The notes below the pieces were generated by a model. It searched no databases. It saw only the letters and a list, made by a program, of their open reading frames with translations, and was not told the DNA's origin. DNA of 64,000 nt from the NCBI GenBank assembly GCA_963745035.1, contig CAVUVW010000014.1, positions 320,001 through 384,000 on the forward strand, given 5' to 3'. How positions within the stretch are numbered: position 1 is the first letter of the stretch; every line of letters begins with the position of its first letter. Origin of the DNA: an uncultured delta proteobacterium. GTDB lineage: Bacteria; Desulfobacterota; Binatia; UBA9968. A program made the translations under genes and the position numbers. This document shows positions 17,382 to 31,992 of this stretch, one piece after another.

Positions 17382-17411
17382 GTTTTCGCGTGCGGCAAAA
17401 CTTCATGTTTG

Positions 17412-17517: not shown

Positions 17518-18051
17518 TCACCGCCTTGTCGCGTCGGTTGCGGTTGGCTCATCGTAACCAAGAACGGTCTCCCACGGCACGCTGCAGTGCGCCACAACCA
17601 ATGTATCGAAGCGCTCCCACCACGCCAGATCTCTCCCTTCTCTACTCAGAAAGCGGACCATTTGCAGCATATCGTTGATCTCCGAGGGGCGGAGCGCCGG
17701 AGCGAAAGCGGGCATGACGCCCGCACCTTCGGCGATGATTTTGCGAATTTGACCATTGCTCTTTTTTTGAACCGTGTCGCGAAAATCGGGAGGCCGCACC
17801 GGCAGTGCCGCCGCCAGGGGACCATCGCCGACACCTCCCGGTCCATGACAATTAAAGCAGCGCTCGGCGTAGAGCGCGTCCATGCGCTCATTCCGCCCGC
17901 AGCCGACAGTCAAAGCGATCAATAGAAGTATCGGCAAAATAAATTTTCCCGGCACAACTAAACGCCTAGCACGACGACTCTGGTGATGCCAATCTCCGGT
18001 GCGCGGATTTGACACGAAGTGAAATTTCGTGTTACGCATTGGTACGATCAT
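17518..18051 (-). CDS. Monoheme cytochrome c, probable lipoprotein (true start probably downstream of 18051)
   Basis: Hydrophobic stretch ending TVGC, CFNCHG…G.GDGP motif, distal Met in MPAF. Confidence 0.8.
   Translation of the reverse strand: MIVPMRNTKFHFVSNPRTGDWHHQSRRARRLVVPGKFILPILLLIALTVGCGRNERMDALYAERCFNCHGPGGVGDGPLAAALPVRPPDFRDTVQKKSNGQIRKIIAEGAGVMPAFAPALRPSEINDMLQMVRFLSREGRDLAWWERFDTLVVAHCSVPWETVLGYDEPTATDATRR
18009..18035. promoter_or_regulatory. Candidate NikR operator
   Basis: TTGACAC-N13-GTGTTAC with a perfect ACACGAA/TTCGTGT dyad, directly upstream of nikR. Confidence 0.6.
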
Positions 18052-18466
18052 GCATCACTTATCGCGCTTCGGCGTTTCGCTGGAAGAAGATCTGCTGGCG
18101 GCTTTTGATGTCAACATTGCCGGAGTCGGTTATCAAAACCGCTCCGAGGCCATCCGCGACCTGATTCGCGATTACTTGATCCAAAAGAAAATCGGGCAGG
18201 GCGACACGGAGGTAATCGGCGTAGTGACACTGGTCTACGATCATAGAGTCCATCGTTTGAGTGATGTTTTGGCGGACATGCAGCACAAGGCCGAGGTCGC
18301 CGTAAACGCCAGCCTGCATATTCATTTGGACGAACACAACTGCCTTGAAGTGATCGTCATCCGCGGGCGCGGCGACAAAGTTCACGAGATCGCGGGTAAG
18401 CTGATCGCCACGAAAGGCGTGCAGAACGGCAAGCTCGTAACCACCACCGCCGAAATGAAGCACTAA
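18050..18466 (+). CDS. nikR: Nickel-responsive regulator NikR
   Basis: RHH domain (RFGVSL…NRSEAIRDLIR), YDH, Ni ligands in QH…LHIHL…NCLE. Confidence 0.93.
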   Translation: MHHLSRFGVSLEEDLLAAFDVNIAGVGYQNRSEAIRDLIRDYLIQKKIGQGDTEVIGVVTLVYDHRVHRLSDVLADMQHKAEVAVNASLHIHLDEHNCLEVIVIRGRGDKVHEIAGKLIATKGVQNGKLVTTTAEMKH

Positions 18467-18482
18467 AATTTTTTGCCGTGGA

Positions 18483-18509
18483 GTAACACGAAATTGCAAT
18501 ACTTGCTAT
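18483..18509. promoter_or_regulatory. Second candidate NikR operator
   Basis: GTAACAC-N13-TTGCTAT, sharing ACACGAA with the first site, upstream of the MFS gene. Confidence 0.45.
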
Positions 18510-18527
18510 TGGACGAGGCCGCTTGAA

Positions 18528-19793
18528 ATGAATCAGCACCAACACCATCACGACTCCGCCACCGGCGGGGGCCGCGACCACGGCGCCTCGGCGCTGACTC
18601 TGGTAAGCCTGGCGCACGGCGTTAACCATGCGCAGTCGGCGCTTAAGCCGCTGGTGTTTCCCCTCGTTCTTCGGGAACTGAATTTCGGCTACAGCGAGCT
18701 TGGCATCATGCTCGGCGTCGCCGCTGCGGTGGGCGGATCGCTGCAACTGGCCGCGGGAGCCCTTGGTCGTATTCTGCCGCGTCATCTCATATTGGGTTTG
18801 GGCAATGCCTCCGTCGGTGTTTGCTTCGTTCTCGTCGGGCTGGCGCAAAATTTTTTCCAATTTTCTCTCTGGACCGTGATGTCCCGGGTCGGTGGCGCCG
18901 CGCAGCACCCGGTGGGCAGCGCGCTCCTGTCACATCATTTTCAACGGAAGAAACTGGGCGTCGCTCTAGCGACGCACTTCACCGCCGGCAATATCGGAAC
19001 CGCGGTGATTCCTTTGGCCGCCGCGATCCTGATCGGCCTGTGGGGTTGGCGCGTCACGACAATTCTTTTTGCGGTGCCGGCGATCCTGGTTGGCGTGGCC
19101 ATGTGCATCTGGCTCAAGGATCCGGCCGCCAAAAGCCTCGGTGAATCCGAAAAACCCGCTTCGTTCTGGCAGGACAGCCGTCATGCCATCGGCAATCGGA
19201 ACCTGCGCTGGATCCTGGCTGCGGCGATCGTCGCCGCAGGCGGATCGGGCCACGGGATTATTTCAAGCTTTCTGCCGCTCTATCTCAATCACAATCTCGG
19301 CATGGATGCCCCGACGGTCGGAGTTATTTTCACGATTATGAGCGTGGGGAGCATCGTCGGCCCGATGCTTACCGGGAAGCTCAGCGATCGATACCACCCG
19401 CAGCGCGTGCTCCTGGTCTGTTACGCGCTCTCTGCCGCAACGGCGTTGATCTTGCCCTGGCTCGGCGCCAGTTTGATGGGCGTCTCGCTGGCGGTGTTCG
19501 CCTTGGGTGTCGTCGCGTTCGGCACGAATCCGATTTTGCAAACGCTCGTCGCGCAGTCGTCGTCCGATCGCCTTCGCGACACCGGTTTCGCATGGTTTTA
19601 TACCGCGACGTTTTTCGCCGGCGCGCTATGGTCTCCTGCCGTCGGCTACCTGAGCGAATGGCTGGGCTTGAAGGCCGCCTTCGGCGCCATGGCGGCGTCA
19701 TTCGTTTTGGCGAGCATGTGCGTCCTGCTCGGTCGTCTGCATGAAATCGCCGTCGATCACGAGCATGGAATCGCCGCACACACTCACCACTAG
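18528..19793 (+). CDS. MFS transporter with His-rich termini
   Basis: About 12 TM segments, GKLSDRY motif, N-terminal HQHHH and C-terminal HEH…HTHH. Confidence 0.85.
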   Translation: MNQHQHHHDSATGGGRDHGASALTLVSLAHGVNHAQSALKPLVFPLVLRELNFGYSELGIMLGVAAAVGGSLQLAAGALGRILPRHLILGLGNASVGVCFVLVGLAQNFFQFSLWTVMSRVGGAAQHPVGSALLSHHFQRKKLGVALATHFTAGNIGTAVIPLAAAILIGLWGWRVTTILFAVPAILVGVAMCIWLKDPAAKSLGESEKPASFWQDSRHAIGNRNLRWILAAAIVAAGGSGHGIISSFLPLYLNHNLGMDAPTVGVIFTIMSVGSIVGPMLTGKLSDRYHPQRVLLVCYALSAATALILPWLGASLMGVSLAVFALGVVAFGTNPILQTLVAQSSSDRLRDTGFAWFYTATFFAGALWSPAVGYLSEWLGLKAAFGAMAASFVLASMCVLLGRLHEIAVDHEHGIAAHTHH

Positions 19794-19823
19794 GAAATTG
19801 CATGTACATTTGGAGAGTCGGTA

Positions 19824-21860
19824 ATGCGTTTTGCAGCTTTGATTATTGCGGGACTAATCTCTTACTTTACTCCACTTGACGCGAAAGGAGCCGATGCAGG
19901 TAGTCCGGTCGAAGTTTACGTATGGGAACAGCAGCCAATGTCGGCCGCAACCGAGCAAACAAGGTGGCAAAGAGACTTGGAACTCCGTCCATCGAACACG
20001 CCGAGCGATGTCATGCGGCTAACGCCCGGATTGATCATCGGCCAACATCACGGCGGCGGCAAAGCCGATCAGATTCTTTTTCGCGGTTTCGACTCGGATC
20101 ACGGCACTGATTTCGCGGTCTTCATCGACGGGATTCCGGTGAACATGGTGAGCCACGCCCACGGCCAGGGTTATGCAGACATGCACTGGTTGATTCCGGA
20201 GACGATTGAACGAGTGGAAATCTACAAGGGACCGTACTTCGCGCACCTGGGCGATTTTGCCACCTCCGGAGCGATGAACATCATCACTAAACGGCGCGAC
20301 AAGGACAGCACAATTACTTTGAGCGGCGGCAGCTACAACACTCAGCGTTACGTCGGCATTTTTGCGCCCCCGGAAACAATTCCTCTCCGTCCGTACATCG
20401 CCGGTGAGATCTACCATAACGACGGGCCGTTCAAGAACGAGAACAATTACATTCGCTACAACCTCCTTGCTAAGCTCGGCCTCTATTCCACCGCCAACTC
20501 GAATCTGAATTTCCTCGGCACTTTTTTCAAAACTGACTGGGACGCATCAGGTGAAATTCCGGCGCGCTCCGTGCGCAGCGGCGAAATCGGCCGCTTCGGC
20601 TCCTTCGATCCGAGCGAAGGCGGCAAGTCCGAGCGCCAGAACCTGAGTCTGATCTACAACTACACAGACGCCAATCAGTCGTTTAACGCGCAGACCTGGG
20701 CAGGCTGGTATAGGCTCCAGCTCTGGTCCAATTTCACTTTGTTTTTTAACGACCCGGTCAACGGTGACGGCATCGAACAAAAGGACAAGCGATTCCTCGC
20801 CGGCAACAACATCAATTATCGCCGCAACTACCGTCTCTGGAACCTGCCGATGGAGACGTTCGTCGGCTTTCAGAGCCGCTTCGATCACATCCGCGTCGGG
20901 CTGTTCAACCAGACCGACCGTCGGCGCCGCGAGACCGTGAAAAATAACAATATCGAGCAAACAAATCTTGGCTGGTTCGTGCAGCAGGAGATTCAACCGG
21001 CGTCCTGGCTGCGAACTCAGATCGGCGCGCGTATGGACAACTTCTGGTTCAACGTCGATCAGATCGGCAATGTTACCGAGCCCATCGCCGGCAACGGCTC
21101 CGATACAATCGTCAATCCCAAGCTCAATTTCATTTTCACTCCGTTCAAAGACGGCGAGGTCGCCAAAACCACGAATTTATTTCTCAATTTCGGCGGCGGC
21201 TTCCACAGCAACGACGCGCGCGTTTTCGTGCAAGATTCTAAAAAAGAGATACCGCGCTATTGGGGCGGCGAGATGGGCGCCAAGTCGCGTTTCTTCGATC
21301 GTTTGGACGTGACACTCGCCTACTGGCGGTCGTATCTGGAAAGCGAGCTAGTATTCGTCGGCGACGAAGGCGGATTTCGAGCCGAGCGGCGCGAGCAACC
21401 GCCACGGCGTAGAAAGCGAGTTCCGCTACGATATCCTTTCCTGGCTATCCTACGATCTCGATCTTTCGTACACCTGGGCGAAATTCACCAACGGCGATAA
21501 AGTGCCCTCTCGCGCCGCGTTTTCTCGCGCTCACCGGACTCACTGCGCGCCACGAATCCGGCCTCCAGGCGCGTCTTGCAGATGCGTCACGTCGGCCGGC
21601 GCTACGGCATCGAAGACGGCAGCATCAAGACTCCGTCGTCGACGGTCTTTGACCTCTTCTTGAAATACGTCTGGAAGCGCTATGAGTTTTTCGTCGAGTT
21701 CCAGAACCTGGCCAACACGAAATATCGCGCCGCCGAGCACGTTTTCGAGTCGCGCACTCCGGGCGAAGTGTCCGGCGGGCTGCCGGGAAGGCTCGATTCT
21801 CACTTTACGCCCGGCGACCCGTTTACCGTGAAGGCTGGAATCACGGTTCATATGTGGTAG
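19824..21860 (+). CDS. TonB-dependent receptor, probably for a metal (frameshifts near 21375-21540)
   Basis: Signal peptide, plug with QHHGGGKADQ, DHGTD, SHAHGQGY, IERVEIYKGP; C-terminal fragment 21576..21860 ends in an aromatic residue (…GITVHMW). Confidence 0.85.
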
Positions 21861-21926
21861 AAAAATGTATTTTTAAACCGCGTCGATCGAGCTTTGCAGG
21901 GATGCGCGTGATTTACGGAAAGCGCA

Positions 21927-22745
21927 GTGAGAGCCGAGAGTTTCAGCATACCGCTCCTTTCATCCATCTCGATTCACGGCTGCGCGATCTTGGTCGCTTC
22001 TTTCCTGCTTCAAGGGAAGGTGCCGCGTCAGCAAAATTATTTTCCGGTACGCTTAATCGAAGCGCCAGAGTTGCAGAATCGGAACCATCTCAAACCTGCG
22101 ACGCGCCAGAAACAAGACCACCGCCGCAGCACAAAGTCAAAGAACGAACCGACAAAGATCACAAAGCCGACCGCGAAGTCCCCAACGGTTACACCGACCC
22201 CGACGCTTCCCGCGACCAAGCCGCAAGAACCGGTAAAGAACGCAGAAACTAAAACAGCCGCGCCGGCAGCGAGCGAGACTCCGGCGAGTGCCATCGTTAA
22301 CAAAGATGGAGAGGACGGCGGTAGCCCTGCCGGCGCAATAGCTTCATCCGGTTCCGGTAATGTGGGAGTCGTTCCCGGCACTGCTACCGGTATAGGCGGC
22401 GGAGGCACAGCGCCTTTAGGTTTAGGCCGCGGTGCCGGCGCGCCAGGATCGCCCGTCCAATCCGTGTTCCGCGCCAATCGCGAAGCCAAGCCGATTCAAA
22501 CCGCGCGGGCGAATTATCCGCCCATGGCGCTGCGGAGCGGCCTGGAAAGCGACGTAACCTTGAAAATCGAAGTCGATCCTCAAGGCAACGTGACCAAAGC
22601 AGAGATTACAAAGAGCGGCGGCGGGGGATTCGACGAAGAAGCCCTCAAGGCGGTAAAGCAGTCGCGCTTCGAGCCGGCGCACCGCGACGGCGAGAATATC
22701 GCGGCCGAATTCACCTATGTCTACCGGTTCCGGATCAGACGATGA
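21927..22745 (+). CDS. tonB: Energy transducer TonB
   Basis: SISIH TM motif, Pro/Lys/Thr-rich linker, YPPMA…FDEEALKAVKQSRFEPA C-terminal domain. Confidence 0.85.
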   Translation: MRAESFSIPLLSSISIHGCAILVASFLLQGKVPRQQNYFPVRLIEAPELQNRNHLKPATRQKQDHRRSTKSKNEPTKITKPTAKSPTVTPTPTLPATKPQEPVKNAETKTAAPAASETPASAIVNKDGEDGGSPAGAIASSGSGNVGVVPGTATGIGGGGTAPLGLGRGAGAPGSPVQSVFRANREAKPIQTARANYPPMALRSGLESDVTLKIEVDPQGNVTKAEITKSGGGGFDEEALKAVKQSRFEPAHRDGENIAAEFTYVYRFRIRR

Positions 22746-22774
22746 GACACTGCGTTTCCTGAAAGGAGATCGAC

Positions 22775-23480: not shown

Positions 23481-23903
23481 ATGGCAGGACGCAAATGGAC
23501 TGTTGCGGCTACGTTGATCCTGGTGCTGTCGCTGCCACCTTTCGTCCAGGCGCAGCACGACCATTCAAAAGGCCACCAGCCGCCGACGCAGACTAAGCCG
23601 ACCAAACCGGCAAAACCGGCGCTCAAACCGGCCGAGGGCGCAAGCATCAAGATCGTTGCGCCGAGCAAAGGCCAGGTCCTCAAAGGCGACAAGATCCCTA
23701 TCGAATACAAACTCACCAAGGGCAAGCGCGGACATCACGCTCATGCTTATGTCGATGGTGAATTGATGGGAATGTTCGAAAGCGAAAAAGGCACGCTCAA
23801 CGGCATCAAGCCCGGCAAACATATCCTCGAGCTGCGCGTCGTAGCGGCCGATCACGTAACCGAACTGGACGCCAGCGACAGGGTCGAATTTACGGTCAAG
23901 TAG
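23481..23903 (+). CDS. Exported His-containing Ig-like protein (possible metal-binding protein)
   Basis: Signal peptide then QHDH, GHHAHAYVDG, PGKHILELRVVAADH. Confidence 0.7.
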   Translation: MAGRKWTVAATLILVLSLPPFVQAQHDHSKGHQPPTQTKPTKPAKPALKPAEGASIKIVAPSKGQVLKGDKIPIEYKLTKGKRGHHAHAYVDGELMGMFESEKGTLNGIKPGKHILELRVVAADHVTELDASDRVEFTVK

Positions 23904-23961: not shown

Positions 23962-24390
23962 GTGCTCAGAAACGCGATGAAAGCACGAAGACCAGTTTCG
24001 AAGCTTCAGCGCGGCCTCTACCTGAGCGCCGCTGCCGCGTTTTGTTTCTTCCTGATCGCGTCCGCTCCCCATCGAGTGCATCATTTTTTCGAGCAACTGG
24101 CCGAATCTTCCGAGCATCACGCCGTTCACGCCGAAACACACGAGCACACCGGAATCGCCCATGATCATCACGACCATGATCATCACGGCCGCGATCACGG
24201 TCAACGGCGGCAGCAAGAAACCGACTGTGTGGTCTTGTCCGTCGCGCAGAACGCGCATGCATCTCTCGTGCAACCGTTTAGTTTTGCCATCTTCGAATCC
24301 GAGGTTACGCGCCGGCACGAACCGCGCGTCGTAGACGCGTCATCGTTCAATCCCGCACCTCGCTCTCAGCGCGCGCCACCGCTGGCCTAA
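23962..24390 (+). CDS. DUF2946-like His-rich protein with a C-terminal RAPP motif
   Basis: N-terminal TM, HDHHDHDHH tract, single Cys, ends …SQRAPPLA*. Confidence 0.7.
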   Translation: MLRNAMKARRPVSKLQRGLYLSAAAAFCFFLIASAPHRVHHFFEQLAESSEHHAVHAETHEHTGIAHDHHDHDHHGRDHGQRRQQETDCVVLSVAQNAHASLVQPFSFAIFESEVTRRHEPRVVDASSFNPAPRSQRAPPLA

Positions 24391-24608
24391 GTTTTTCCGA
24401 GCTACTTTCAGTGTCAAGTTAAGTTGTCTGCTTTCGACAATATCCTTTGTCGAAAGAGAGCTTACGTATTGGCGCCTTACCACTTAGGGACCGTGTCTGC
24501 TGCTTTCGGGTCATTTGGACCGTCAATCGAGCGAGGTTCGCGTAGTGGTAGGCGCAAAAGCGATTCGCCTGATGATCCATTCATCGGTGATCAGGTAGGT
24601 AATTTTCT

Positions 24609-25922
24609 ATGAGAACGCTAACAATTGTAAGTTGCTTCCTTTTTCTCGGCTGCGGTTCGGAACTGGCCGCGCCGCCGGCGGCCAATCGGGCAGTTCCTCT
24701 CGCCTTCGGACCGGAGATCGCTATCGGCGAACCCGAGGCGAATCCTTCGACACCGTTTCTGCGCCACTCGCCGGACGGACGACTGTTTGCCGTCTGGACC
24801 GAAGACCACGAGACACCTTGGCCACAAGGAAAGCACTCCGCAGGTGGCCACGCGCACATGAAGGGCGACCGAGCGCCATCGCCGATGCGCAACGCTTTTA
24901 TCGCTTCATCGAGCGACAACGGAAAGAGCTGGGCGCCACGGCGGCGGGTGAATAGCGAAGTCGAGGCAGTTCAAGGCGAGGAAAACGGACCTAAGGTCGC
25001 CTTTGACTCCAATAACCGCGCCTACGTCGTCTGGTCCATTCCCGGTGGCAAAGGCGACAAGACGCGCGCAAATATTCGCTTCGCCATGGAAGACAGTAAC
25101 GGCAACTTCACACCGGCCCGAACCTTGAACGAGGTCAAAGACGCCGGCCGCTTTCCGATCATTGAAGCCATGCCCGACGGCAACTTCTTGATCGCCTGGA
25201 TCGACCGCCGGATAGACAACCCAAAGCCACGCCAGCTCTATCTGATGAAGATGGGCGCCACCGGAGAATCGTTGACGAAGAACTACCAAGCCGGCGAAGG
25301 CCTGTGCGAATGCTGTAAACTGGGCTTTGCCTTCGCCGCCGGCGGTAAGACGGTTTACATGGTCGATCGCGAGGTGGATGAAAGTAAAATTCGCAATCAC
25401 GTGCTGCGCAAGTCCACCGACGGTGCCGCCACCTTCGGCGCGCCTGTGGAAATCAGCAACGACGGCTGGCAGGTGCCCTCGTGCCCGCACTCCGGGCCGA
25501 GCATCGGCCGCGACAGCCGTGGCTGGCTCCACGTCGTGTGGTTCACTCTGGGCCGCACCGAAAAGGAAGCGGGAATTTACTACAGCGTGTCGAGAGACGA
25601 CGGCAAAAGCTTCGCGCCGCGCCGGTTAGTCCATGCCAATGCGGCGCCGGAAATTCTCTATGCCAATCTCACCGTCGGTCTCGACGATACGGTCTATCTG
25701 GCCTGGAGTAATTTGGACAAGACCAGCAGAGCACAAATTTTTATGCGCACGATATCGGCCGACGGCCGGACATGGAGCGCCATCCAGCAAGTGAGTAACG
25801 CGAAAGGCAACGCCAGCCGGCCGGTTTTAGCGCTCCGAAACGATCAGTTGCACGTCGCCTGGACCGAAACCGACAGCGAGGACTCGCGAGTTGTCATGAG
25901 AAACGCGGCGGTAAGCCGATGA
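24609..25922 (+). CDS. BNR/Asp-box (sialidase-like) beta-propeller lipoprotein
   Basis: FLGC lipobox; SSDNGKSW, STDGAATF and SRDDGKSF Asp-boxes; CECC and CPHSGP motifs. Confidence 0.8.
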   Translation: MRTLTIVSCFLFLGCGSELAAPPAANRAVPLAFGPEIAIGEPEANPSTPFLRHSPDGRLFAVWTEDHETPWPQGKHSAGGHAHMKGDRAPSPMRNAFIASSSDNGKSWAPRRRVNSEVEAVQGEENGPKVAFDSNNRAYVVWSIPGGKGDKTRANIRFAMEDSNGNFTPARTLNEVKDAGRFPIIEAMPDGNFLIAWIDRRIDNPKPRQLYLMKMGATGESLTKNYQAGEGLCECCKLGFAFAAGGKTVYMVDREVDESKIRNHVLRKSTDGAATFGAPVEISNDGWQVPSCPHSGPSIGRDSRGWLHVVWFTLGRTEKEAGIYYSVSRDDGKSFAPRRLVHANAAPEILYANLTVGLDDTVYLAWSNLDKTSRAQIFMRTISADGRTWSAIQQVSNAKGNASRPVLALRNDQLHVAWTETDSEDSRVVMRNAAVSR

Positions 25923-26504
25923 ACACACGAATGACTCAGCGAAACCAGCCGCCTGGCGTGCGATATCGCGCCACTGGCAACATTGTGCTGCGCCGTCCTG
26001 TTGATATCGGCAGCGTCGACCGCGTGGTCGCAACACAATCATCACACCGGCCAGTCCGCCGCGCCGGTAGTCGGCGGCCCAGCGGTACCGTTCGAGCTCA
26101 AGTCACTCGATGGCAAACCGGTCGGCCTTTCAACCTTCCGCGGCAAACCGCTGGTCGTAAATTTCTTCGCCAGTTGGTGCGACCCCTGCCGCGAAGAAAT
26201 GCCATTGATCAACGATCTGGCGTCCAAAGGCGCCAAAGACGGTTACAGCGTGCTCGGCATCGCGGTCGAGGACAGCCGCGCGGCCGTAACAGAATTCGCT
26301 AAAGAGTCCAAGCTCGTTTTCCCCGTCGCCCTCGATTTGAACAGCACCGTCAAGCGCGCCTACCGCATCTTCGGTCCACCGGCGACTTTCTTTATCGACG
26401 GGCAGGGCATCATCCGCGATGTGGTTCTCGGCCCAATCACGCCCGACCGTGCTCGCGCGGCGATGAAGAAAATCAGTGATGAACGATGGATGGAAAAAAG
26501 GTAG
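25919..26504 (+). CDS. TlpA/ResA-family thiol-disulfide oxidoreductase (5' end uncertain or frameshifted)
   Basis: NFFASWCDPCREEMP, GPPATFFIDGQG; signal peptide followed by QHNHH. Confidence 0.85.
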
Positions 26505-26638
26505 AATCCGCGGGCCATCGCGACCTGGATAGCGCCGCCGCTGAGGCGGTCAAAAAGTGGCTATTCGAGCCTGCCCGGGCGGGAAAAACACCGGTTGCCG
26601 TCTGGGTCTTACTCCCAGTTAAATTTGAGCTAGAATAG
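26486..26638 (+). pseudogene. TonB C-terminal fragment
   Basis: Reads ESAGHRDLDSAAAEAVKKWLFEPARAGKTPVAVWVLLPVKFELE*. Confidence 0.7.
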
Positions 26639-26655
26639 CACACGCCCGGTCTTTC

Positions 26656-27606
26656 ATGAGAAAAACATTTTTCAGATACTTGCTGGTCACTACTTCGGTG
26701 GGGATCGTGCTGGTGGCATTGAATGTGCCAGCCGGTGCACAGTCCGTGGACTTTAATGGAAGGTCTCCAGTAGACGTCGTCAAGGCCTATCTCCGGGCGA
26801 TGCATGCCCGCGACTTTGATACTGCTTATGGCTACGTCTCCGCCAGCGATCGCAGGGTGCGCGGAAAGGGCACCTATCTTCGCTCTCATGAAAATTTCAT
26901 TGGCTTTGCCCTGGATCTCGCCAGGCGGCTCGCCACAGGCATGGAAGTATGGGCAATCAAACAGCAACTCGGGTCGTCGAAGACTCATCTTGAAATCGGG
27001 TATCGCGCGCCAACAGCCGATGAGCTGGCCTTGCAGCTTCTCGATTGGGATCCCGCCAAGCTCAACGCGCTTTCACCCGCTCAGCAATCCGCGCTGTTCG
27101 GAGCTCTCTCCAAGCTCCAAAGCAGCGGGAAGATGATCACCATCGAAGGTCGTGAAAACTTCGACTTGGTGCGAGAACGGGAGGGTTGGAGAATCTTCTT
27201 CGATTGGCAGGCGCACCACCGAATTGTTTTCAAGAGCACCCAGGCCGATCGTCAGGATTTGACGGTACGGTTTTTGCGCAACGATCTTTTCGTTAAACGC
27301 GAAGAGCCCTTTCAAGTAGACCTCGCCGTCACCAACCGTACGGACCGTGCGATTGTCGTAAAACTCAATCATCTTTTCGCACCACGCCAAATAGAGAAAA
27401 ATATCGATATGATCGCCTGCGGCTCCCTTGGGCCCTTGCACCTTCAGCCGCACGAGATTCGGAAGATCTCCAGCGTCTATCTCTTGCGCGGCGCTTTATC
27501 CGACGAAGCGCCGATTGGAATCATTTATGACTTCAATGTCACGCATCCACCGGACAAGAGATTTGCACGCCTGAAAGATCAAACAATGAGGCAACAGTGG
27601 CGCTGA
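26656..27606 (+). CDS. Exported protein with an N-terminal NTF2-like region and a C-terminal Cox11/CtaG-like domain (paralog 1)
   Basis: YLRAMHARDF..AY.YVS..DR; L.RE.EGWRIFFDW; C-terminal VTN…NIDMIACG…LQPHE…IIYDF. Confidence 0.7.
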   Translation: MRKTFFRYLLVTTSVGIVLVALNVPAGAQSVDFNGRSPVDVVKAYLRAMHARDFDTAYGYVSASDRRVRGKGTYLRSHENFIGFALDLARRLATGMEVWAIKQQLGSSKTHLEIGYRAPTADELALQLLDWDPAKLNALSPAQQSALFGALSKLQSSGKMITIEGRENFDLVREREGWRIFFDWQAHHRIVFKSTQADRQDLTVRFLRNDLFVKREEPFQVDLAVTNRTDRAIVVKLNHLFAPRQIEKNIDMIACGSLGPLHLQPHEIRKISSVYLLRGALSDEAPIGIIYDFNVTHPPDKRFARLKDQTMRQQWR

Positions 27607-28502
27607 GGCAGCATCATCACAAGCCAGTCCTCATTAGGCTCGGGATTTTCTCGCAACTGCTGCTGGCTCTGGCGCTCGGGGCTATGAGTAACCGGCCCGC
27701 TTGCGCGTCCGAGGAACCCGCAAAGGTTGTCGAAGCCTATGTGCGCGCGACCTATGCGCGTGACTTTGTCGAAGCGTATCGCTTTATTTCCGCCGATGAC
27801 CGCAAGGCGATGAACGTCAATCGTTATGTTCAGCAGCGCGGCGCCTTCAGCGGCTTCATTCTCGAGGCGGCGAAAAAGCTCAGCGAAGCGGTTGAGATTC
27901 ATCCCTTGAAGCAGCAAGCTCGGGGTAACCGCATGGATCTCTTGGTCAAGTACCGGGTTCCTGATACCAAGAAGATCGCGCCTGTTCTTTTGAATTGGGA
28001 TACGTACCAGTTGAATTCATTGAATCCCGTCGATCGAAAACAACTCCTTGCCACCTTGGAAAAGAAACGACGTGATCGCTCTCTGGAGATGATAGAGGGC
28101 GAAGTCAATTTCGAGCTGGTCAAAGAAGGCAGCGACTGGAGAGTGTTTTTGAACTGGGCTTCCGGCGTTAAGATACCCCTGCGACTTGATCTATCCCAGG
28201 CCGCCGATCTGGACGTGTCTATTTCGCAGCCGGAGGTCATGGTTCAGCCCGGTGAAATCTTTGACATAGTTCTTAAGGTCAAAAACAAAACCAAGGAGCC
28301 CATCACGGCGCGCATCGGCCATTTGGTCGAGCCGCAAGCTCATGCCGACTATTTGGACTTCGTTCAGTGCGGTTTTCTCTTGCCGGTGACGATTCCGCCA
28401 GAAAAAGAAGAACAGTACTTCGGCACTTACATGGTCCGTGGCAGCCTTCCCGAAGGCGTGCGGCAACTAAGTTTGACGTATGATTTTCGCATTCTTCAGT
28501 AA
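27597..28502 (+). CDS. Exported NTF2-like + Cox11/CtaG-like protein (paralog 2)
   Basis: YVRATYARDF.EAYRFIS; WRVFLNW; EVMVQPGE…VKN…YLDFVQCGF…LSLTYDF. Confidence 0.7.
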   Translation: MALRQHHHKPVLIRLGIFSQLLLALALGAMSNRPACASEEPAKVVEAYVRATYARDFVEAYRFISADDRKAMNVNRYVQQRGAFSGFILEAAKKLSEAVEIHPLKQQARGNRMDLLVKYRVPDTKKIAPVLLNWDTYQLNSLNPVDRKQLLATLEKKRRDRSLEMIEGEVNFELVKEGSDWRVFLNWASGVKIPLRLDLSQAADLDVSISQPEVMVQPGEIFDIVLKVKNKTKEPITARIGHLVEPQAHADYLDFVQCGFLLPVTIPPEKEEQYFGTYMVRGSLPEGVRQLSLTYDFRILQ

Positions 28503-29100
28503 GGTTATCGCCGTCGGCGGCCTGTCGCTCGGGCTCCTCTTGCCAGCTTTTCTCTTCGCGCATGTTCCCGACACGCCAAAAAGTTCAAGCAAAAATACCA
28601 CCGCTGTTGGTGTTAGAGTGCTCGATTTTGTTCTGGTGAATCAAGACACTCAACGTCTCGATTCGACGCAGCTCCGCGGCAAGGTGCTGGTGCTGAATTT
28701 TATCTTCACGACCTGCACAGATGTTTGCCCGCTATTCACGATGAATCTCGCCGCGCTTCAGCGCAACCTCAACGGTCGCTTCGGCGGTGATATTTTCTTC
28801 CTGAGCATAACCACCGACCCCGAAGTGGATTCGGCAAAGCATCTGAAAGCTTACGGCCAACGGCACGGCACCGATTTCAAGAATTGGGCATTCTTAACGG
28901 GCTCCGAAGCGCAATTGAAAGCGGTCTGGGACAGCTTCGGTATCACGGTCATCAAGAAGGGCCGCGGGTTGGTGCAGCACACGAGCCTCACCACCGTCAT
29001 CGACCGCCAGGGGGTTCGACGATTCAATTATCTCGGCGAGAAGTGGCGGATCCAAGATCTCGAAAGAGATCTCTTGACCTTGCTCGACAAGAAAGCTTGA
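28480..29100 (+). CDS. SCO1/SenC family protein
   Basis: FIFTTCTDVCP (CxxxC), ITTDPEVD, W.FLTG, distal His in VQHTS. Confidence 0.9.
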   Translation: MIFAFFSKVIAVGGLSLGLLLPAFLFAHVPDTPKSSSKNTTAVGVRVLDFVLVNQDTQRLDSTQLRGKVLVLNFIFTTCTDVCPLFTMNLAALQRNLNGRFGGDIFFLSITTDPEVDSAKHLKAYGQRHGTDFKNWAFLTGSEAQLKAVWDSFGITVIKKGRGLVQHTSLTTVIDRQGVRRFNYLGEKWRIQDLERDLLTLLDKKA

Positions 29101-29200
29101 TTTCTCCCAACGCAAATCTAGCGGCGACCCCGGTTTTATGGTTAATTGCTTTTGCCATGAGTTCGAGATTCCGATCGTCTAATCTGCGTCGAGGGGAAAA

Positions 29201-29776
29201 ATGAAGAATATCAGCCGCTGGATGCTCGCAGGACTTTTCGTCGCGCTCACGCTGGCTCCAAGTCGCGTAAGCCTGGAAATATCCGCCCACGCGCAGGATG
29301 CCCCTTTCGATAACAAGAAGATCGTCCCCTTTGTTCCCTCGCCGCAGGAAGTCGTCGATAAGATGATCGAGTTGGCGGGCGTAAAAAAGGGCGATGTCGT
29401 CTACGATATGGGCTCGGGTGACGGCCGCATCGTCATCGCCGCGGCCAAAAAAGGCGCTCGCGCCGTCGGCTTCGAGATCGACGGCGATCTCGTGAAAGAG
29501 TCGCGCGAAAATATTCGCAAGGCCGGCGTGGAGAACCTGGCGGAGATCCGCCAGCAGGACATTCTCACCGTCGATTTTGCTCCCGCGTCGGTGGTGACCA
29601 TGTATCTTTTGCCCGACGTCAATTTGAAGCTCAAACCAAATCTGTTGAAGCAGCTCAAACCGGGCTCCCGCTTGGTCTCGCATTCCTTCGACATGGGCGA
29701 TTGGAAGCCCGACAAGGTCGAGCGCGTGGACGGCCGCACGATCAATTTTTGGACTATTCCCGCCAAGAAAAAGTAG
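29201..29776 (+). CDS. SAM-dependent methyltransferase with an N-terminal signal peptide
   Basis: Signal peptide ending AHA; VPFVPSP, VYDMGSGDGR, MYLLP, SHSFDMGDW. Confidence 0.85.
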   Translation: MKNISRWMLAGLFVALTLAPSRVSLEISAHAQDAPFDNKKIVPFVPSPQEVVDKMIELAGVKKGDVVYDMGSGDGRIVIAAAKKGARAVGFEIDGDLVKESRENIRKAGVENLAEIRQQDILTVDFAPASVVTMYLLPDVNLKLKPNLLKQLKPGSRLVSHSFDMGDWKPDKVERVDGRTINFWTIPAKKK

Positions 29777-29818
29777 CGCGTTGGGTATTCGCGGAGATTT
29801 TTTAACTTAACTGAGCGA

Positions 29819-30706
29819 ATGCCCGCCGCCATTAAAAGGTCGCTGCTTTTCCTGATCAGCGTCGCGCTCCTGGCCGCGCCGCTGTTCTTTTGGTTCGGCG
29901 TTGAGAGCCGCCAAGAGGAGCCGCTCGACACGCTGGCGAAGTATTTGAAAGTCCTTTACGCCCGGGATTTCCGCCAGGCGTATCGTTTCATCTCCGCCGC
30001 GGACCGCGAGCTGAAAAGCCGCAGCGACTACGTGCGCGAGCGCGGCGCGTTTCACGGGCTTGCACTCGACGCCGCGCGCAAGCTTTCGGATCTCATCGAA
30101 GTTTATCCCGTAAAGCAGGATGTTGATGGAGCGCGCAATCGAGTGACAGTCGCTTTGAAGCTTCCCGACGCCAATGCCGTCGGCGATTTACTTCTCGACT
30201 GGGACGAGCGGCGGCTCGCTGACTTGCCGGTGTCCGAGCAGAAAAAGCTGCTCGCGCGCATCGAACAGCTCGTGCGCGACGATCAGGTGCCGATGATCGA
30301 AGGTGAGGAAGAATTCGTGCTGGTTCAGGAAGGGTCCCAATGGAAAATTTTTCTCGATTGGGCCGCCGGCGTTCAGGTCAAGTTCGCCACCACACTGCCG
30401 TCGAATGGCGCGCTGGCGGCGGAACCGGTGAGCAAAGAAACCGTCGTTCGCTCGGGCGATCTCTTCACGGTGGGCTTCAAAGTAAAGAATCCAGGGAAGA
30501 ATGAAATTCTGACCCGCATCGTTCACCGGGTGGAGCCTAAAGAAATGACCGAATACTTGGATCTTGTGGAGTGCGCGTTGCTGCTGCCGGTGCGCCTGCG
30601 CCCTGGCGAAGAGCAGATTTTCAACAGTACCTACATCGTGCGCGGCGATCTCCCTGACGGCGCCAAATCCATCGCTGTGAATTATGAATTCCAAATCGAA
30701 AATTAA
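29819..30706 (+). CDS. Membrane-anchored NTF2-like + Cox11/CtaG-like protein (paralog 3)
   Basis: YLKVLYARDF.QAYRFIS; WKIFLDW; VVRSGD…VKN…YLDLVECAL…LRPGEE…VNYEF. Confidence 0.7.
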   Translation: MPAAIKRSLLFLISVALLAAPLFFWFGVESRQEEPLDTLAKYLKVLYARDFRQAYRFISAADRELKSRSDYVRERGAFHGLALDAARKLSDLIEVYPVKQDVDGARNRVTVALKLPDANAVGDLLLDWDERRLADLPVSEQKKLLARIEQLVRDDQVPMIEGEEEFVLVQEGSQWKIFLDWAAGVQVKFATTLPSNGALAAEPVSKETVVRSGDLFTVGFKVKNPGKNEILTRIVHRVEPKEMTEYLDLVECALLLPVRLRPGEEQIFNSTYIVRGDLPDGAKSIAVNYEFQIEN

Positions 30707-31307
30707 CGGGTGGATTGCGGCTTTTGTGCTTGGCGCAGCATCCCTGTCCGCGACGAGCTCAGCGCATGTTCCGCTACCGCCCAGAGAACCGAGCGACATC
30801 GGCCGGCGTGTGGTCAACAAGCCTGTGCCGGACTTCAAGCTCACCGATCAAGACGACAGGCCGTTTCAATTCGCCGGCGCGCGCGGCAAGGTTGTTCTCG
30901 TAACTTTTGTCTTCACCACCTGCCCGGACGTCTGCCCGCTTTTCACGGCCAACTTCGCCGGCATCCAGCAGCGGCTCAACGAGAAGAAGATAACCGACTA
31001 CCTGCTGCTCACGATCACCACCGACCCCGAGCGCGACAGCGCCGCGGTCCTAAAAGAATACGCCGGCCGCTTCAAAGCCGACTTGAAGCGCTGGTCATTC
31101 CTCACCGGCGCACGCGCCGAATTGAGCAAAGTGTGGAAGATTTTCGGCGTCAACGTGGTCAAAACCGACTCCGGACAAGTGCAGCACACATCGTTCACGA
31201 CCCTCGTCGATCGCCAAGGCAGACGCCGCGTCGATTATTACGGCGACAAGTGGCGGGAGAAGGAGGTTCTCAAGGATATCGAATGGCTGCGCGCGGAGAA
31301 GCCGTAA
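30684..31307 (+). CDS. SCO1/SenC family protein (second copy)
   Basis: FVFTTCPDVCP, ITTDPERD, WSFLTG, VQHTS. Confidence 0.9.
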   Translation: MNSKSKINGWIAAFVLGAASLSATSSAHVPLPPREPSDIGRRVVNKPVPDFKLTDQDDRPFQFAGARGKVVLVTFVFTTCPDVCPLFTANFAGIQQRLNEKKITDYLLLTITTDPERDSAAVLKEYAGRFKADLKRWSFLTGARAELSKVWKIFGVNVVKTDSGQVQHTSFTTLVDRQGRRRVDYYGDKWREKEVLKDIEWLRAEKP

Positions 31308-31413
31308 GAACTGAAGTGATGGAGTGTCGGAGTAATGCTCAACCCGGCACTTTATTATCAGCCACGCCTAGGTTGTCTAACGAAGCACATACACGCATGA
31401 AAGAATTTCGTTC

Positions 31414-31992
31414 ATGCTGAGCCCGTCGAAGCATTCCTCGGCCCTTTTCGGTGCTTTGCTTTTTTTTGCCTCCTACCTCGTCGCCGATGTGGCAAACACC
31501 GCTGAGCGCGCTCAAGGCGTCTTGGAAATCCGGATCAAAGACCACCGCGACGCCATCGGCGACTTCGCCAAGCTTAATATCAATATCGATAAGATCCTGA
31601 TCAGCCCGAACGTTGGGCTGAAGGTCTGGCAAACCGGTTGGCAAGAACTCACCGCTTCACCCGACACGGTCGATCTGACGAAGTACATTGGCAAGACCAC
31701 AGCCAAAGTATTTCGCTCGAACATCGATGCAGGACCGTTCGATGCCTTTCATTTGAAGCTCAAGAGCATCGACGCCGTGCTCAAAAAAAACCAGAAAAGC
31801 GCACCGGTTAAAAATACGCTCGGGCCGGTGAAGCTCACCTTCGATGTTCCTCCAAAAGGCGAAACAATCCTGGTGATCGACCTGACCGTGGTGGATTTAT
31901 CCGACCACCCGCCGCGCGGCTATGAGCTGGGAATCCGCGGCTACGAGCTCTACACCAACGGCAAGCTCATCGGTAGAATCCCGCCGAATTAA
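31414..31992 (+). CDS. Exported DUF4382-like beta-rich protein
   Basis: Signal/TM, G.LEIRIKD…F..LNINI.KI, VDLT pattern. Confidence 0.55.
   Translation: MLSPSKHSSALFGALLFFASYLVADVANTAERAQGVLEIRIKDHRDAIGDFAKLNINIDKILISPNVGLKVWQTGWQELTASPDTVDLTKYIGKTTAKVFRSNIDAGPFDAFHLKLKSIDAVLKKNQKSAPVKNTLGPVKLTFDVPPKGETILVIDLTVVDLSDHPPRGYELGIRGYELYTNGKLIGRIPPN

What the first reader, a model, noticed from the sequence alone, without database searches (positions are those of the whole stretch)
17518..31992. NikR-headed ~14 kb metal uptake and metallochaperone island combining Ni regulation with Cu-type chaperone folds
Seen: 15 co-directional intact genes plus a TonB remnant between core loci zapB and ahcY. Order: nikR, His-rich MFS, TonB-dependent receptor (His-rich plug), TonB, poly-His methyltransferase, exported His protein, His-rich RAPP protein, CECC/CPH propeller, TlpA, three Cox11-like fusions interleaved with two SCO proteins and an exported methyltransferase, then a DUF4382-like protein. 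A cytochrome c gene is divergent. Known: NikR senses Ni, whereas SCO, Cox11 and TlpA normally deliver Cu to oxidases. No oxidase, urease or hydrogenase gene is in the window. Inference: an undescribed periplasmic pathway that imports, modifies and hands off a metal (Ni, or Cu under NikR control) to an unknown client.
Basis: partly seen in the sequence, partly recalled or inferred. Interest (0 to 1): 0.85.

Follow-up and report, generated by a model that had tools for sequence, protein, structure and literature searches.

The report
NikR-headed metal uptake and chaperone cluster
An uncultured soil bacterium (Candidatus Binatia) keeps a nickel-sensor gene, metal-uptake genes and a set of unusual copper-chaperone-like genes in one conserved row, a combination not found in the papers searched and whose metal and client enzyme are still unknown.

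Summary
The gene row is real and almost as described. It runs nikR, MFS, TonB-dependent receptor (TBDR), TonB, His-tagged methyltransferase, exported His protein, DUF2946, BNR propeller, TlpA, three Cox11-like fusions, two SCO, exported methyltransferase, DUF4382.

Corrections:
- The TBDR is broken by three frame changes. The "TonB remnant" is its C-terminus.
- The left flank is zapA, not zapB.
- ahcY is also broken in this assembly.

The row is conserved across Candidatus Binatia, but it is modular:
- A predicted NikR operator sits only upstream of nikR, and nikR is always followed by transporter genes.
- The His-rich "RAPP protein" belongs to the CruR/CutF family of metal-sensing arrest-peptide leaders. 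It probably controls the downstream chaperone genes separately.
- Relatives insert CopC-CopD and ZnuABC genes into the row.
- Other Binatia families keep a Cox11(CFCF)-DUF4382-SCO core without nikR, with Cox11 and DUF4382 fused in one genus.

Best reading (about 0.5): a Ni-responsive uptake unit joined to a copper-type periplasmic chaperone unit. Heme-copper oxidases are candidate clients.

No major Ni enzyme family tested was found in the genome, so a single NikR-governed pathway is not excluded. I rate it a new variant of a known kind, of moderate to high interest.

The parts
17518..18051 (-). Monohaem cytochrome c, divergent from nikR, with a lipoprotein-like signal. The true start probably lies downstream of the listed ATG.
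   Evidence: Pfam Cytochrome_CBB3 41 bits. Orthologues align from residue ~39. In relatives it is followed by an SCO gene that the window lacks.
18009..18035 (.). Predicted NikR operator TTGACAC-N13-GTGTTAC in the cytochrome c / nikR intergenic region
   Evidence: Conserved in 6 of 6 aligned loci of the genus. Family f2 has GTGTTAC-N13-GTAACAt. It matches the delta-proteobacterial NikR consensus and its reversed form in PMC545781. It is the only site in the window.
18029..18466 (+). nikR (likely start ATG 18050)
   Evidence: RHH_1 plus NikR_C. NF003381 scores 177 bits against a cut-off of 105. Best PDB match is 2bj1, 128.7 bits, with the H-x-H...C and QH residues aligned.
18528..19793 (+). MFS transporter with His-rich N- and C-termini; direction of transport unknown
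   Evidence: MFS_1 209.8 bits. Source names are generic only. The CcoA motifs MXXXM and HXXXM in helices 7 and 8 were not found.
19824..21860 (+). TonB-dependent receptor with a conserved His-rich plug, interrupted in this assembly by three single-base frame changes (about 21378, 21504 and 21574)
   Evidence: Plug and barrel domains. Intact orthologues are 686-705 aa. Alignment. One 98%-identical contig of run X3 lacks one base at each of the three places. Plug motifs are conserved. No paralogue elsewhere in the genome.
21927..22745 (+). TonB
   Evidence: TonB_C 66.4 bits
22775..23383 (+). Cytoplasmic class I SAM methyltransferase with an N-terminal His run (MT1)
   Evidence: Methyltransf_25 45.4 bits. 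The His-rich N-terminus is kept in orthologues.
23481..23903 (+). Exported Ig-like beta-sandwich protein with invariant H86, H88, H125 ('exp140')
   Evidence: No Pfam or PDB sequence match. AF2 domain pLDDT 95-98. The fold match is generic FnIII/Ig. Invariant residues come from alignment A4. In relatives the same domain is fused to CopD.
23962..24390 (+). DUF2946 (CruR/CutF family) exported leader peptide. It has 17 His, a single Cys89 and a C-terminal RAPP at 137-140.
   Evidence: PF11162 25.8 bits against 23.7. RAPP is kept in 17 of 17 complete copies. Family properties from PMC9426467 and two preprints.
24391..24608 (+). Long (218 nt) leader-to-gene intergenic region
   Evidence: In 12 loci the DUF2946 gene is followed by the BNR gene after 112-244 nt. 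RNA fold z = -2.16.
24609..25922 (+). BNR/sialidase-like beta-propeller lipoprotein with conserved CxCC and CPH motifs
   Evidence: BNR_2 31.4 bits. C233, C235, C236, C292 and H294 are kept in 7 of 8 orthologues.
25983..26504 (+). TlpA-like periplasmic thiol:disulfide oxidoreductase (WCDPC)
   Evidence: AhpC-TSA 98.7 bits, Redoxin 80.2 bits. The motif is read.
26656..27606 (+). Cox11-like fusion A (TM anchor, NTF2-like domain, Cox11 fold); motif CGSL
   Evidence: Cox11 16.6 bits, under the cut-off. 31% identical to CoxC.
27597..28502 (+). Cox11-like fusion B; motif CGFL
   Evidence: Cox11 30.2 bits. Alignment A1.
28480..29100 (+). SCO protein 1 (CxxxC...H)
   Evidence: SCO1-SenC 89.4 bits. Motifs aligned.
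29201..29776 (+). Class I methyltransferase with an N-terminal signal or anchor (MT2)
   Evidence: Methyltransf_31 43.4 bits. Conserved position in the cluster.
29819..30706 (+). Cox11-like fusion C; motif CALL; invariant N224 and C252, near-invariant H236
   Evidence: Cox11 41.9 bits. AF2 model pLDDT 94.8. Best PDB fold is apo-Cox11 1SO9, TM 0.69. Profile versus 1so9 gives E 1.9e-24. Motif counts.
30684..31307 (+). SCO protein 2 (CxxxC...H); overlaps CoxC by 23 nt
   Evidence: SCO1-SenC 100.3 bits..
31414..31992 (+). DUF4382 protein with invariant D43, H44, R45, D161, S163, H165
   Evidence: PF14321 41.7 bits. Alignment A3. Fused in frame to the Cox11-like protein in genus g9.

Best explanation
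This is a lineage-specific metal-supply supercluster of Candidatus Binatia. It is built from separable units laid head to tail beside zapA.

Unit 1 (18009-23383) has a NikR operator, then nikR, a His-rich MFS, a TBDR, TonB and a His-tagged methyltransferase. I read it as a nickel-responsive, self-regulated envelope uptake unit. It would work like the NikR-controlled TonB-dependent nickel uptake of Helicobacter.

Unit 2 (23481-31992) has an exported His protein and then a DUF2946 leader that ends in RAPP. By analogy with CruR and CutF, the nascent leader senses periplasmic metal and sets expression of the genes behind it by ribosome arrest. Those genes are a Cys/His-rich BNR propeller, a TlpA-type reductase, three membrane-anchored Cox11-fold proteins, two SCO proteins, an exported methyltransferase and DUF4382. 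I read this unit as a periplasmic thiol-reductase and copper-chaperone relay. Its most likely clients are the cell's heme-copper oxidases or another envelope cuproenzyme.

Shown: gene content, conservation, modularity, the operator-like palindrome, the defining motifs and the Cox11 fold.

Inferred: the metals, the direction of transport, regulation by arrest, the client, and any hand-off between the two units.
For: NikR:
- The canonical Ni ligands are aligned with P. horikoshii NikR 2bj1, and the equivalog score is well over its cut-off.
- The palindrome at 18009-18035 is conserved in the genus and has a standard-orientation counterpart in family f2. It fits the published delta-proteobacterial NikR signal.
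- In 23 of 23 nikR loci with more than 1.5 kb downstream, the next gene is a transporter: ZnuA 9, TBDR 7, MFS 7 (three of the 24 rows are repeats of the same genomes).

Modularity:
- G015 and G021 have the chaperone unit beside cytc-SCO and no NikR in the genome.
- G043, G045 and G036 have nikR-ZnuABC without an adjacent Cox11-like gene.
- Genus g9 has NikR in 0 of 19 genomes but keeps ABC-Cox11::DUF4382-SCO-VKOR.

DUF2946:
- It has an export signal, a Cys at the place of the first Cys of CXXC (47 residues before RAPP, against 48 in Bp2923), RAPP two residues from the end, and a 218-nt IGR.

Copper pointers:
- Both SCO proteins keep CxxxC...H.
- Relatives place DUF2946-(DUF4198 or an outer-membrane protein)-CopC-CopD::exp140 inside the row.
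- The f2 and f3 Cox11 copies keep CFCF and score 85-105 bits.
- These fusion genes are the only Cox11 matches in all 61 genomes.
- The window's genome has 4 COX1 and 3 COX2 genes.

Soil metatranscriptome contigs (run X18) with 0-1 differences lie on MFS, TBDR, CoxB, the CoxB/SCO1 junction, CoxC and DUF4382. This is a weak hint only, because DNA can be present in such libraries.
Against: - Tight synteny of nikR with the Cox11-like/DUF4382/SCO genes recurs in two families with different genes in between. That would also fit one regulon.
- The nikR operator region is shared with a divergent cytc-SCO pair in 11 of 24 loci.
- None of the Ni enzyme families tested was found in the window's 92.6%-complete genome: NiFe hydrogenase, urease alpha, NiSOD, CODH/prismane, LarA. 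The need for Ni uptake is therefore unexplained.
- The three window paralogues have lost the second Cys of CFCF. His-rich tracts dominate the leader, MFS, MT1 and exp140, which suits Ni(II) or Cu(II) as well as Cu(I).
- One oxidase operon has its own SCO, and the genome holds six SCO-family matches. Six complete g9 genomes have COX1 but no Cox11-like gene. The oxidases therefore need not be the clients.
- The TBDR is broken in this assembly and has no paralogue.
- No promoter, terminator or transcript data define the operons.
Confidence: 0.5

Rival explanations
1. There is one NikR-governed nickel pathway. Ni enters through the TBDR and is passed along His- and Cys-bearing periplasmic proteins (exp140, BNR, Cox11-like, SCO, DUF4382). 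It goes to an inner-membrane importer (MFS here, ZnuABC in relatives) or to an unknown envelope Ni protein. The copper-type folds would have been re-used for Ni.
For: - nikR heads the row in families f1 and f2.
- NikR keeps all the Ni ligands.
- The ABC importer genes sit directly beside Cox11-DUF4382-SCO even where NikR is absent.
- The window's Cox11-like proteins keep one Cys plus a near-invariant His instead of CFCF.
- The leader is His-rich. A preprint links His-only CutF-like proteins to HupE/UreJ Ni/Co transporters.
- DUF4198, found in relatives, is recalled to be related to Ni/Co ABC accessory proteins. That recollection was not tested here.
Against: - No major Ni enzyme family tested was found in the genome.
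- Genus g9 keeps the core with no NikR.
- The SCO motifs are the canonical copper ones.
- CopC-CopD genes lie inside the row in relatives.
- Only one NikR box is present, and the leader with its 218-nt IGR splits the row.
Confidence: 0.2
2. The pathway is copper-only, and the NikR homologue has been recruited to sense Cu (or to shut Cu uptake when Ni competes). The TBDR, MFS, CopCD and ZnuABC-like genes import Cu, and the chaperones distribute it.
For: - Most families in the row are copper-associated: DUF2946, SCO, Cox11 fold, TlpA, and CopC/CopD in relatives.
- No Ni enzyme was found.
- It is established, from recall, that E. coli NikR binds Cu(II) tightly in vitro at the high-affinity site.
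Against: - The sensor site is unchanged from Ni-sensing NikRs, and the operator is of the known NikR type.
- No NikR is known to respond to Cu in vivo (recalled).
- The TBDR shows no sequence match to OprC in the PDB search, only plug-level matches to BtuB and Cir.
Confidence: 0.1
3. The units are neighbours with no functional coupling: a Ni-uptake operon that is decaying in this strain, and an oxidase-assembly operon. They merely share a conserved chromosomal site next to zapA.
For: - The units occur apart.
- The TBDR is broken here. The window also lacks the ZnuABC and CopCD genes of relatives and the SCO gene behind cytochrome c.
- The same zapA flank is seen in 11 loci.
Against: - Co-directional order with short gaps (29-218 nt, three overlaps) is kept across many species.
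- nikR is adjacent to Cox11-DUF4382-SCO again in family f2, with a different gene set in between.
- ahcY is also frameshifted twice, so the TBDR breaks may be assembly errors.
Confidence: 0.15

Closest known systems
NikR-controlled TonB-dependent nickel uptake of Helicobacter pylori (FrpB4/FecA3 with ExbB-ExbD-TonB). Recalled; Schauer 2007 and Davis 2006 were seen only in the reference list of PMC11247825.
   Same: A NikR regulator is linked to an outer-membrane TonB-dependent receptor and a TonB gene. The operator-like palindrome lies at the promoter.
   Different: Here nikR, the TBDR, TonB and an MFS lie in one row. No exbBD is in the row. No urease or hydrogenase was found in the genome. 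A long chaperone row follows.
NikR regulon of delta-proteobacteria (Rodionov et al. 2004, PMC545781; passages read)
   Same: The half-sites are GTGTTAC/GTAACAC with a 13-nt spacer, in both orientations, upstream of transporter genes next to nikR.
   Different: The published targets are nikMNQO-type ABC systems. Here they are a TBDR, an MFS and ZnuABC-type genes.
CruR (Bp2923)-BfrG-Bp2921 of Bordetella pertussis, and CutF-CutO-CutG of Rhodobacter capsulatus (DUF2946 leaders). PMC9426467: abstract, passages and section 10. Preprints 10.1101/2022.11.11.516240 and 10.1101/2025.02.05.636593: passages.
   Same: An exported small protein with a metal motif at a fixed distance from a C-terminal RAPP. 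A long IGR lies before the regulated genes. The neighbours include TBDT, SCO and AhpC_TSA genes.
   Different: CXXC is reduced to one Cys and the protein carries 17 His. The gene is internal to a longer row rather than first. The first gene behind it is a BNR propeller.
Cox11/SCO/TlpA copper delivery to aa3-type cytochrome oxidase (reviews PMC6696091 and PMC7558416 seen in a search listing only; otherwise recalled)
   Same: SCO with CxxxC...H. A TlpA-type reductase. A membrane-anchored Cox11 fold (1SO9, TM 0.69).
   Different: An extra NTF2-like domain. Three paralogues. The CFCF motif is lost in this genus. The genes are not beside oxidase genes. DUF4382 is linked or fused, and nikR is linked.
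CopC-CopD (YcnJ-type) copper import
   Same: Relatives carry CopC and a CopD whose C-terminus is the exp140 domain. The fold is an Ig-like sandwich.
   Different: The window has only the free exp140 domain. That domain is not a CopC family member: no Pfam match, and CopC 5ICU ranks only 33rd in the fold search.

Membership tests
NikR | N-terminal ribbon-helix-helix plus C-terminal NikR_C domain | tested here: met
   RHH_1 34.3 bits, NikR_C 96.8 bits. NF003381 177 bits against a cut-off of 105.
NikR | High-affinity Ni site: three His and one Cys | tested here: met
   H79, H90, H92 and C98 (numbered from Met 18050) align with identical residues of P. horikoshii NikR 2bj1. That these are the ligand residues is recalled.
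NikR | Ni-dependent binding to a palindromic operator | not testable with these tools
   Only a conserved palindrome of the published type was found.
DUF2946 / CruR-CutF arrest-peptide leaders | Pfam PF11162 match over the cut-off | tested here: met
   25.8 bits against 23.7
DUF2946 / CruR-CutF arrest-peptide leaders | N-terminal export signal or TM segment | tested here: met
   A hydrophobic stretch at residues 19-35 follows a basic N-terminus. This was judged by eye; no predictor was run.
DUF2946 / CruR-CutF arrest-peptide leaders | C-terminal RAPP a few residues before the stop | tested here: met
   RAPP at 137-140 of 142. Kept in 17 of 17 complete copies.
DUF2946 / CruR-CutF arrest-peptide leaders | CXXC metal motif about 45 residues before RAPP | tested here: not met
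   Only Cys89 is present (C-V-V-L), 47 residues before RAPP. His-rich variants are reported for the family.
DUF2946 / CruR-CutF arrest-peptide leaders | Metal-dependent ribosome arrest that controls the downstream gene | not testable with these tools
   Only the 112-244 nt IGR before the BNR gene in 12 loci was seen.
Cox11 / CtaG | Cox11 beta-sandwich fold behind an N-terminal membrane anchor | tested here: met
   AF2 pLDDT 94.8 with helix 3-26. 1SO9 is the top fold hit, TM 0.69, rmsd 2.7. The profile hits 1so9 at E 1.9e-24.
Cox11 / CtaG | CFCF copper-binding motif | tested here: not met
   The window paralogues read CALL, CGFL and CGSL. 31 of 62 family members keep CFC[FLM].
Cox11 / CtaG | Genomic or functional link to cytochrome oxidase | tested here: inconclusive
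   No oxidase gene lies in the row. These are the only Cox11 matches in 61 genomes. COX1 is present in 58 of 61, including genomes without the fusion.
SCO1/SenC | Thioredoxin fold with CxxxC and a distal His | tested here: met
   89.4 and 100.3 bits. CTDVCP/CPDVCP and VQHTS are aligned with orthologues.
TlpA-type periplasmic reductase | Exported thioredoxin-like domain with a CxxC active site | tested here: met
   AhpC-TSA 98.7 bits. WCDPC and a hydrophobic N-terminus. Its substrates were not tested.
TonB-dependent receptor | Plug plus a complete 22-strand barrel in one reading frame | tested here: not met
   The domains are present, but three frame changes interrupt the barrel. Orthologues are intact.
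CopC | Pfam CopC domain or a specific fold match (tested for exp140) | tested here: not met
   No Pfam match. CopC 5ICU ranks only 33rd, TM 0.37-0.47. The link rests only on the fusion to CopD in relatives.
CcoA-type MFS copper importer | [quoted passage not shown] | tested here: not met
   No MXXXM. The only HXXXM is HNLGM at residue 255, in a loop.

The most novel reading that the evidence does not exclude
SCO, Cox11-fold and DUF4382 proteins form a NikR-governed periplasmic relay for nickel, or for copper sensed through NikR. The relay carries the metal between a TonB-dependent receptor and inner-membrane importers, or to an unknown envelope enzyme. This would be the first non-copper, or non-oxidase, job for these chaperone folds. 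It would also be the first case of two stacked metal sensors (NikR plus a His-rich RAPP arrest peptide) on one row.
Probability: 0.15. Interest if true: 0.85.

Novelty: new variant of a known kind. Interest (0 to 1): 0.6.

Why it matters
Copper and nickel trafficking in the bacterial envelope is known from a few model proteobacteria. This row adds four things:
- An uncharacterised protein family: TM anchor, NTF2-like domain and Cox11 fold, often linked or fused to DUF4382. About 125 clusters at 50% identity reach E<=1e-30.
- A His-rich member of the new CruR/CutF class of arrest-peptide metal sensors.
- A canonical nickel regulator wired next to copper-type chaperones.
- All of this in an abundant, uncultured soil lineage.

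If the units are coupled, nickel would gate copper supply, or the chaperone folds would handle nickel. If they are not coupled, the row is still a compact, testable set of candidate envelope metallochaperones, and probably the only Cox11-type proteins that Binatia have.

Tried and rejected
- Complex prediction of CoxC (residues 30-295) with DUF4382 (30-192) gave no verdict, score 0.02. It is not used either way.
- Sequence searches of the PDB found nothing usable for exp140, BNR and DUF4382.
- The fold search for exp140 gave only generic FnIII/Ig domains.
- Atlas look-ups for exp140 and BNR returned own-lineage or generic sialidase-like clusters.
- The TBDR against the PDB gave only plug-level matches to BtuB and Cir. 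No substrate clue came from it.
- Homologue names for the MFS were generic, so transport direction remains unknown. The CcoA motif test was not met.
- The genome-wide NikR-box scan (up to 2 mismatches) gave 7 reversed and 6 standard sites. Only the window's site lies at a nikR promoter or is conserved; the rest look like chance. With 3 mismatches the window has 1 site against 1.59 expected, so the count alone is not significant. Conservation is the evidence.
- Promoter and terminator scans were near the shuffle level: 7 promoter-like sites against 5.7, and 34 terminator-like sites against 22.7.
- The RNA fold of the leader IGR gave z = -2.16 and was not followed up by covariation.
- Depth and gaps of the laid contigs are not used as evidence. 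Contigs of runs X1 and X2 do not show the three deletions and show a joint at 21506>21577 that I could not interpret.
- pmoB was sought, but the control search rang nowhere, so that result is uninformative.
- Supplementary tables of the CruR and CutF papers (family lists, the His-only clusters) could not be seen.

Full report
WHAT IS THERE

The window is G000:C14:320001-384000 of a 7.4-Mb, 28-contig, 92.6%-complete metagenome-assembled genome. Record titles of related loci name the lineage as Candidatus Binatia, often labelled 'uncultured delta proteobacterium'.

Sixteen + strand genes lie between 18029 and 31992. Pfam and NCBIfam give:
- nikR: RHH_1 plus NikR_C; equivalog NF003381 at 177 bits against a cut-off of 105.
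- An MFS transporter with His-rich ends.
- A TonB-dependent receptor (TBDR).
- TonB.
- A methyltransferase that begins MASFSHSHHHHH.
- A 140-aa exported protein with no family ('exp140').
- DUF2946.
- A BNR propeller lipoprotein.
- A TlpA-like redoxin (WCDPC).
- Three paralogous proteins whose C-terminal halves match CtaG_Cox11: 41.9, 30.2 and 16.6 bits, cut-off 25.
- Two SCO1/SenC proteins.
- A second methyltransferase with a signal-like N-terminus.
- DUF4382.

A monohaem cytochrome c gene is divergent from nikR. Gaps between genes are 29-218 nt, with three overlaps.

CORRECTIONS TO THE OBSERVATION

The receptor is not intact. Its orthologues are single ORFs of 686-705 aa. The window reads the same protein only if the frame is changed three times, near 21378, 21504 and 21574.

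One 2872-nt metagenome contig of run X3, about 98% identical, lacks one base at each of the three places and so reads through. Contigs of runs X1 and X2 do not show these deletions.

ahcY is cut into three frame segments relative to a 432-aa orthologue. Assembly indels are therefore a live explanation, and I cannot tell a pseudogene from an error. No second copy of the receptor is in the assembly.

The left flank is zapA, followed by a 5-formyl-THF cyclo-ligase gene and rny. It is not zapB.

CONSERVATION AND MODULARITY

A search of 61 related genomes found relatives of CoxC in 47, and in 27 of 30 genomes of the same genus. These tallies, and those, include G005, and one search also includes G035. 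Both are unpublished. No locus-level statement rests on them.

tblastn maps of 20 fetched regions show the whole order in L014, L015, L017, L018, L020, L023 and L024. That order is nikR-TBDR-MFS-TonB-(MT1)-exp140-DUF2946-BNR-TlpA-Cox11-like...MT2-Cox11-like-SCO-DUF4382.

Of 40 further public loci with at least 2 kb downstream of the last Cox11-like gene, 37 have DUF4382 within 2.5 kb and 36 have DUF4382 and SCO together. The row lies beside zapA in 11 loci, so it is not a mobile island.

The row is modular:
- (a) G015 (98% complete) and G021 (95% complete) have the chaperone part next to cytochrome c-SCO. They have no nikR or TBDR there and no NikR_C match anywhere.
- (b) G043, G045 and G036 have nikR followed only by ZnuA-ZnuC-ZnuB.
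- (c) Family f2 has nikR-ZnuABC-Cox11-like-DUF4382-SCO-VKOR.
- (d) Genus g9 (family f3) has NikR in 0 of 19 genomes. It keeps ABC ATPase-permease-Cox11-like-SCO-VKOR, with the Cox11-like protein fused in frame to DUF4382.
- (e) Relatives carry extra genes between MT1 and exp140 that the window lacks. These are ZnuABC and a second DUF2946 leader, followed by DUF4198 or an outer-membrane protein, then CopC, then a CopD whose C-terminus is the exp140 domain.

The window's genome has no other copy of these genes. The exceptions are a CopC and an SCO-VKOR pair on contig C15.

REGULATION

NikR is most like P. horikoshii NikR (2bj1, 128.7 bits). The H-x-H...C and the QH histidine align with identical residues.

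A palindrome TTGACAC-N13-GTGTTAC lies at 18009-18035, just upstream of nikR. It is conserved in six of six aligned loci of the genus. Family f2 has GTGTTAC-N13-GTAACAt at the same place. Rodionov et al. 2004 derived GTGTTAC-[N13/14]-GTAACAC, and its reversed form, as the NikR signal of delta-proteobacteria (PMC545781, passages read).

It is the only such site in the window. A genome scan gave no other convincing site. NikR here therefore looks like a local regulator.

In 23 of 23 nikR loci with room downstream, the next gene is a transporter gene: ZnuA, TBDR or MFS.

The second regulator is the 'His-rich RAPP protein'. It matches DUF2946. Members of this family, CruR of B. pertussis and CutF of R. 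capsulatus, are exported leader peptides. Their nascent chain senses copper through CXXC and controls downstream genes through arrest at a C-terminal RAPP-type motif (PMC9426467; preprints).

The window protein has the export segment and RAPP at 137-140 of 142. It has one Cys, placed 47 residues before RAPP, where Bp2923 has 48. It has 17 His, and a 218-nt intergenic region follows. RAPP is kept in 17 of 17 complete copies. In 12 loci the next gene is the BNR propeller, after 112-244 nt.

CutF-like proteins with only His motifs were reported beside HupE/UreJ genes and proposed to sense Ni or Co. The leader's metal is therefore open.

THE CHAPERONE-LIKE PROTEINS

Both SCO proteins keep CxxxC and the distal His.

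CoxC folds with high confidence (pLDDT 94.8). The model shows a membrane helix, an alpha+beta domain that matches the NTF2-like N-terminal domains of PBP2a-type proteins, and a beta-sandwich. The best PDB match of the sandwich is apo-Cox11 1SO9, with TM 0.69 and rmsd 2.7 over 111 columns. The family profile hits 1so9 at E 1.9e-24.

The family has about 125 clusters (50% identity) at E<=1e-30. Half of 62 aligned members keep CFC[FLM]. The other half, including all three window paralogues, keep only the first Cys. N224 and C252 are invariant, and H236 is kept in 57 of 62.

In the 61 genomes, all but one of the Cox11 Pfam matches fall at or beside the places the CoxC search found. The exception is a partial match in G040, a genome with no CoxC match. 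The CFCF-type copies score 85-105 bits and the genus copies 22-44 bits.

DUF4382 has an invariant DHR and an invariant D...S-D-H set. exp140 is an Ig-like sandwich with invariant H86, H88 and H125. The BNR propeller keeps CxCC and CPH in 7 of 8 orthologues.

CLIENTS AND METALS

The window's genome has four COX1 and three COX2 genes on other contigs. One of those operons has its own SCO. There are six SCO-family matches in all.

COX1 is in 58 of 61 genomes, including complete g9 genomes that lack the Cox11-like gene.

The following were not found in the window's genome:
- NiFe-hydrogenase large subunit (over the cut-off in only 5 of 61 genomes);
- urease alpha over the cut-off;
- NiSOD (1 of 61 genomes);
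- CODH/prismane;
- LarA.

The genome is 92.6% complete, so these are 'not found', not 'absent'.

READING

The evidence best fits a supercluster of separable units. One is a NikR-operated uptake unit. The other is a leader-controlled, copper-type periplasmic reductase and chaperone unit, to which relatives add CopCD and ZnuABC. I hold this at about 0.5.

Three things keep a single NikR-governed pathway alive, for Ni or for Cu sensed by NikR:
- the repeated adjacency of nikR to Cox11-DUF4382-SCO in two families;
- the shared operator region with cytochrome c-SCO (11 of 24 loci);
- the lack of any Ni enzyme found.

Together I give those readings about 0.3. Pure coincidence of neighbours is about 0.15.

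LITERATURE

- 'DUF4382' occurs in one unrelated paper.
- No paper in the searched library holds both 'NikR' and 'Cox11'.
- Searches combining Binatia/Binatota with copper, nickel, NikR, oxidase, TonB or metallochaperone showed nothing on this row in the 15 and 10 top-ranked rows listed. Each search held many more papers than it listed.
- Subscription journals and supplementary files were not searched.

EXPRESSION

Contigs from a soil metatranscriptome library (run X18) with 0-1 differences lie on six parts of the row, including the CoxB/SCO1 junction. Such libraries can contain DNA, so this is only a hint.

Noticed in passing
window 32220-33506 (- strand): ahcY is split into three frame segments (breaks near 33328 and 32485) relative to a 432-aa orthologue in L013. 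This is either two frameshifts in a housekeeping gene or assembly indels.
   Followed up: partly
window 17145-17517: In relatives an SCO gene lies between cytochrome c and zapA (for example L014 2465-2986). The window has only a 374-nt gap there and no SCO match.
   Followed up: partly
L029:9500-10936, L030:9957-11393, L031:10030-11457, L028:9488-10921: In a GC-rich Binatia genus (about 65-68% GC) the Cox11-like protein (with CFCF) and DUF4382 are one open reading frame of about 475 aa. A fusion of this kind suggests that the two proteins work together.
   Followed up: yes
L018:7739-8989, L033:5899-7263, L019: CopD membrane proteins carry the exp140 domain as a C-terminal periplasmic domain. 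They follow a CopC gene and a second DUF2946 leader that ends in (I/S)RAPP.
   Followed up: yes
L023 (G019:C45): The whole row in this genome is peppered with frame breaks: Cox11-like, SCO, BNR, MFS and TBDR are each split into pieces. The same genome also gave split COX1 matches. This looks like an error-prone assembly.
   Followed up: no
L025:12234-13106, L031:12208-13149; G000:C15:304441-305292: A VKOR protein with a thioredoxin-like C-terminus follows SCO in families f2 and f3. In the window's genome the SCO-VKOR pair lies on another contig.
   Followed up: partly
window 29201-29776: A class I SAM methyltransferase with an intact GxGxG motif carries a signal-like N-terminus (charges favour export), although SAM is not expected in the periplasm. 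It is conserved inside the chaperone row.
   Followed up: no
L015:6499-7359, L025:8100-8966, L031:8009-8875: The ZnuC-type ATPases of the linked ABC systems have His-rich N-terminal extensions. In g9 no ZnuA gene is seen directly beside the ATPase and permease genes.
   Followed up: no
window 24366-24385: A GC-rich hairpin followed by a T-rich run overlaps the codons of the RAPP motif and the stop codon of the DUF2946 gene.
   Followed up: no
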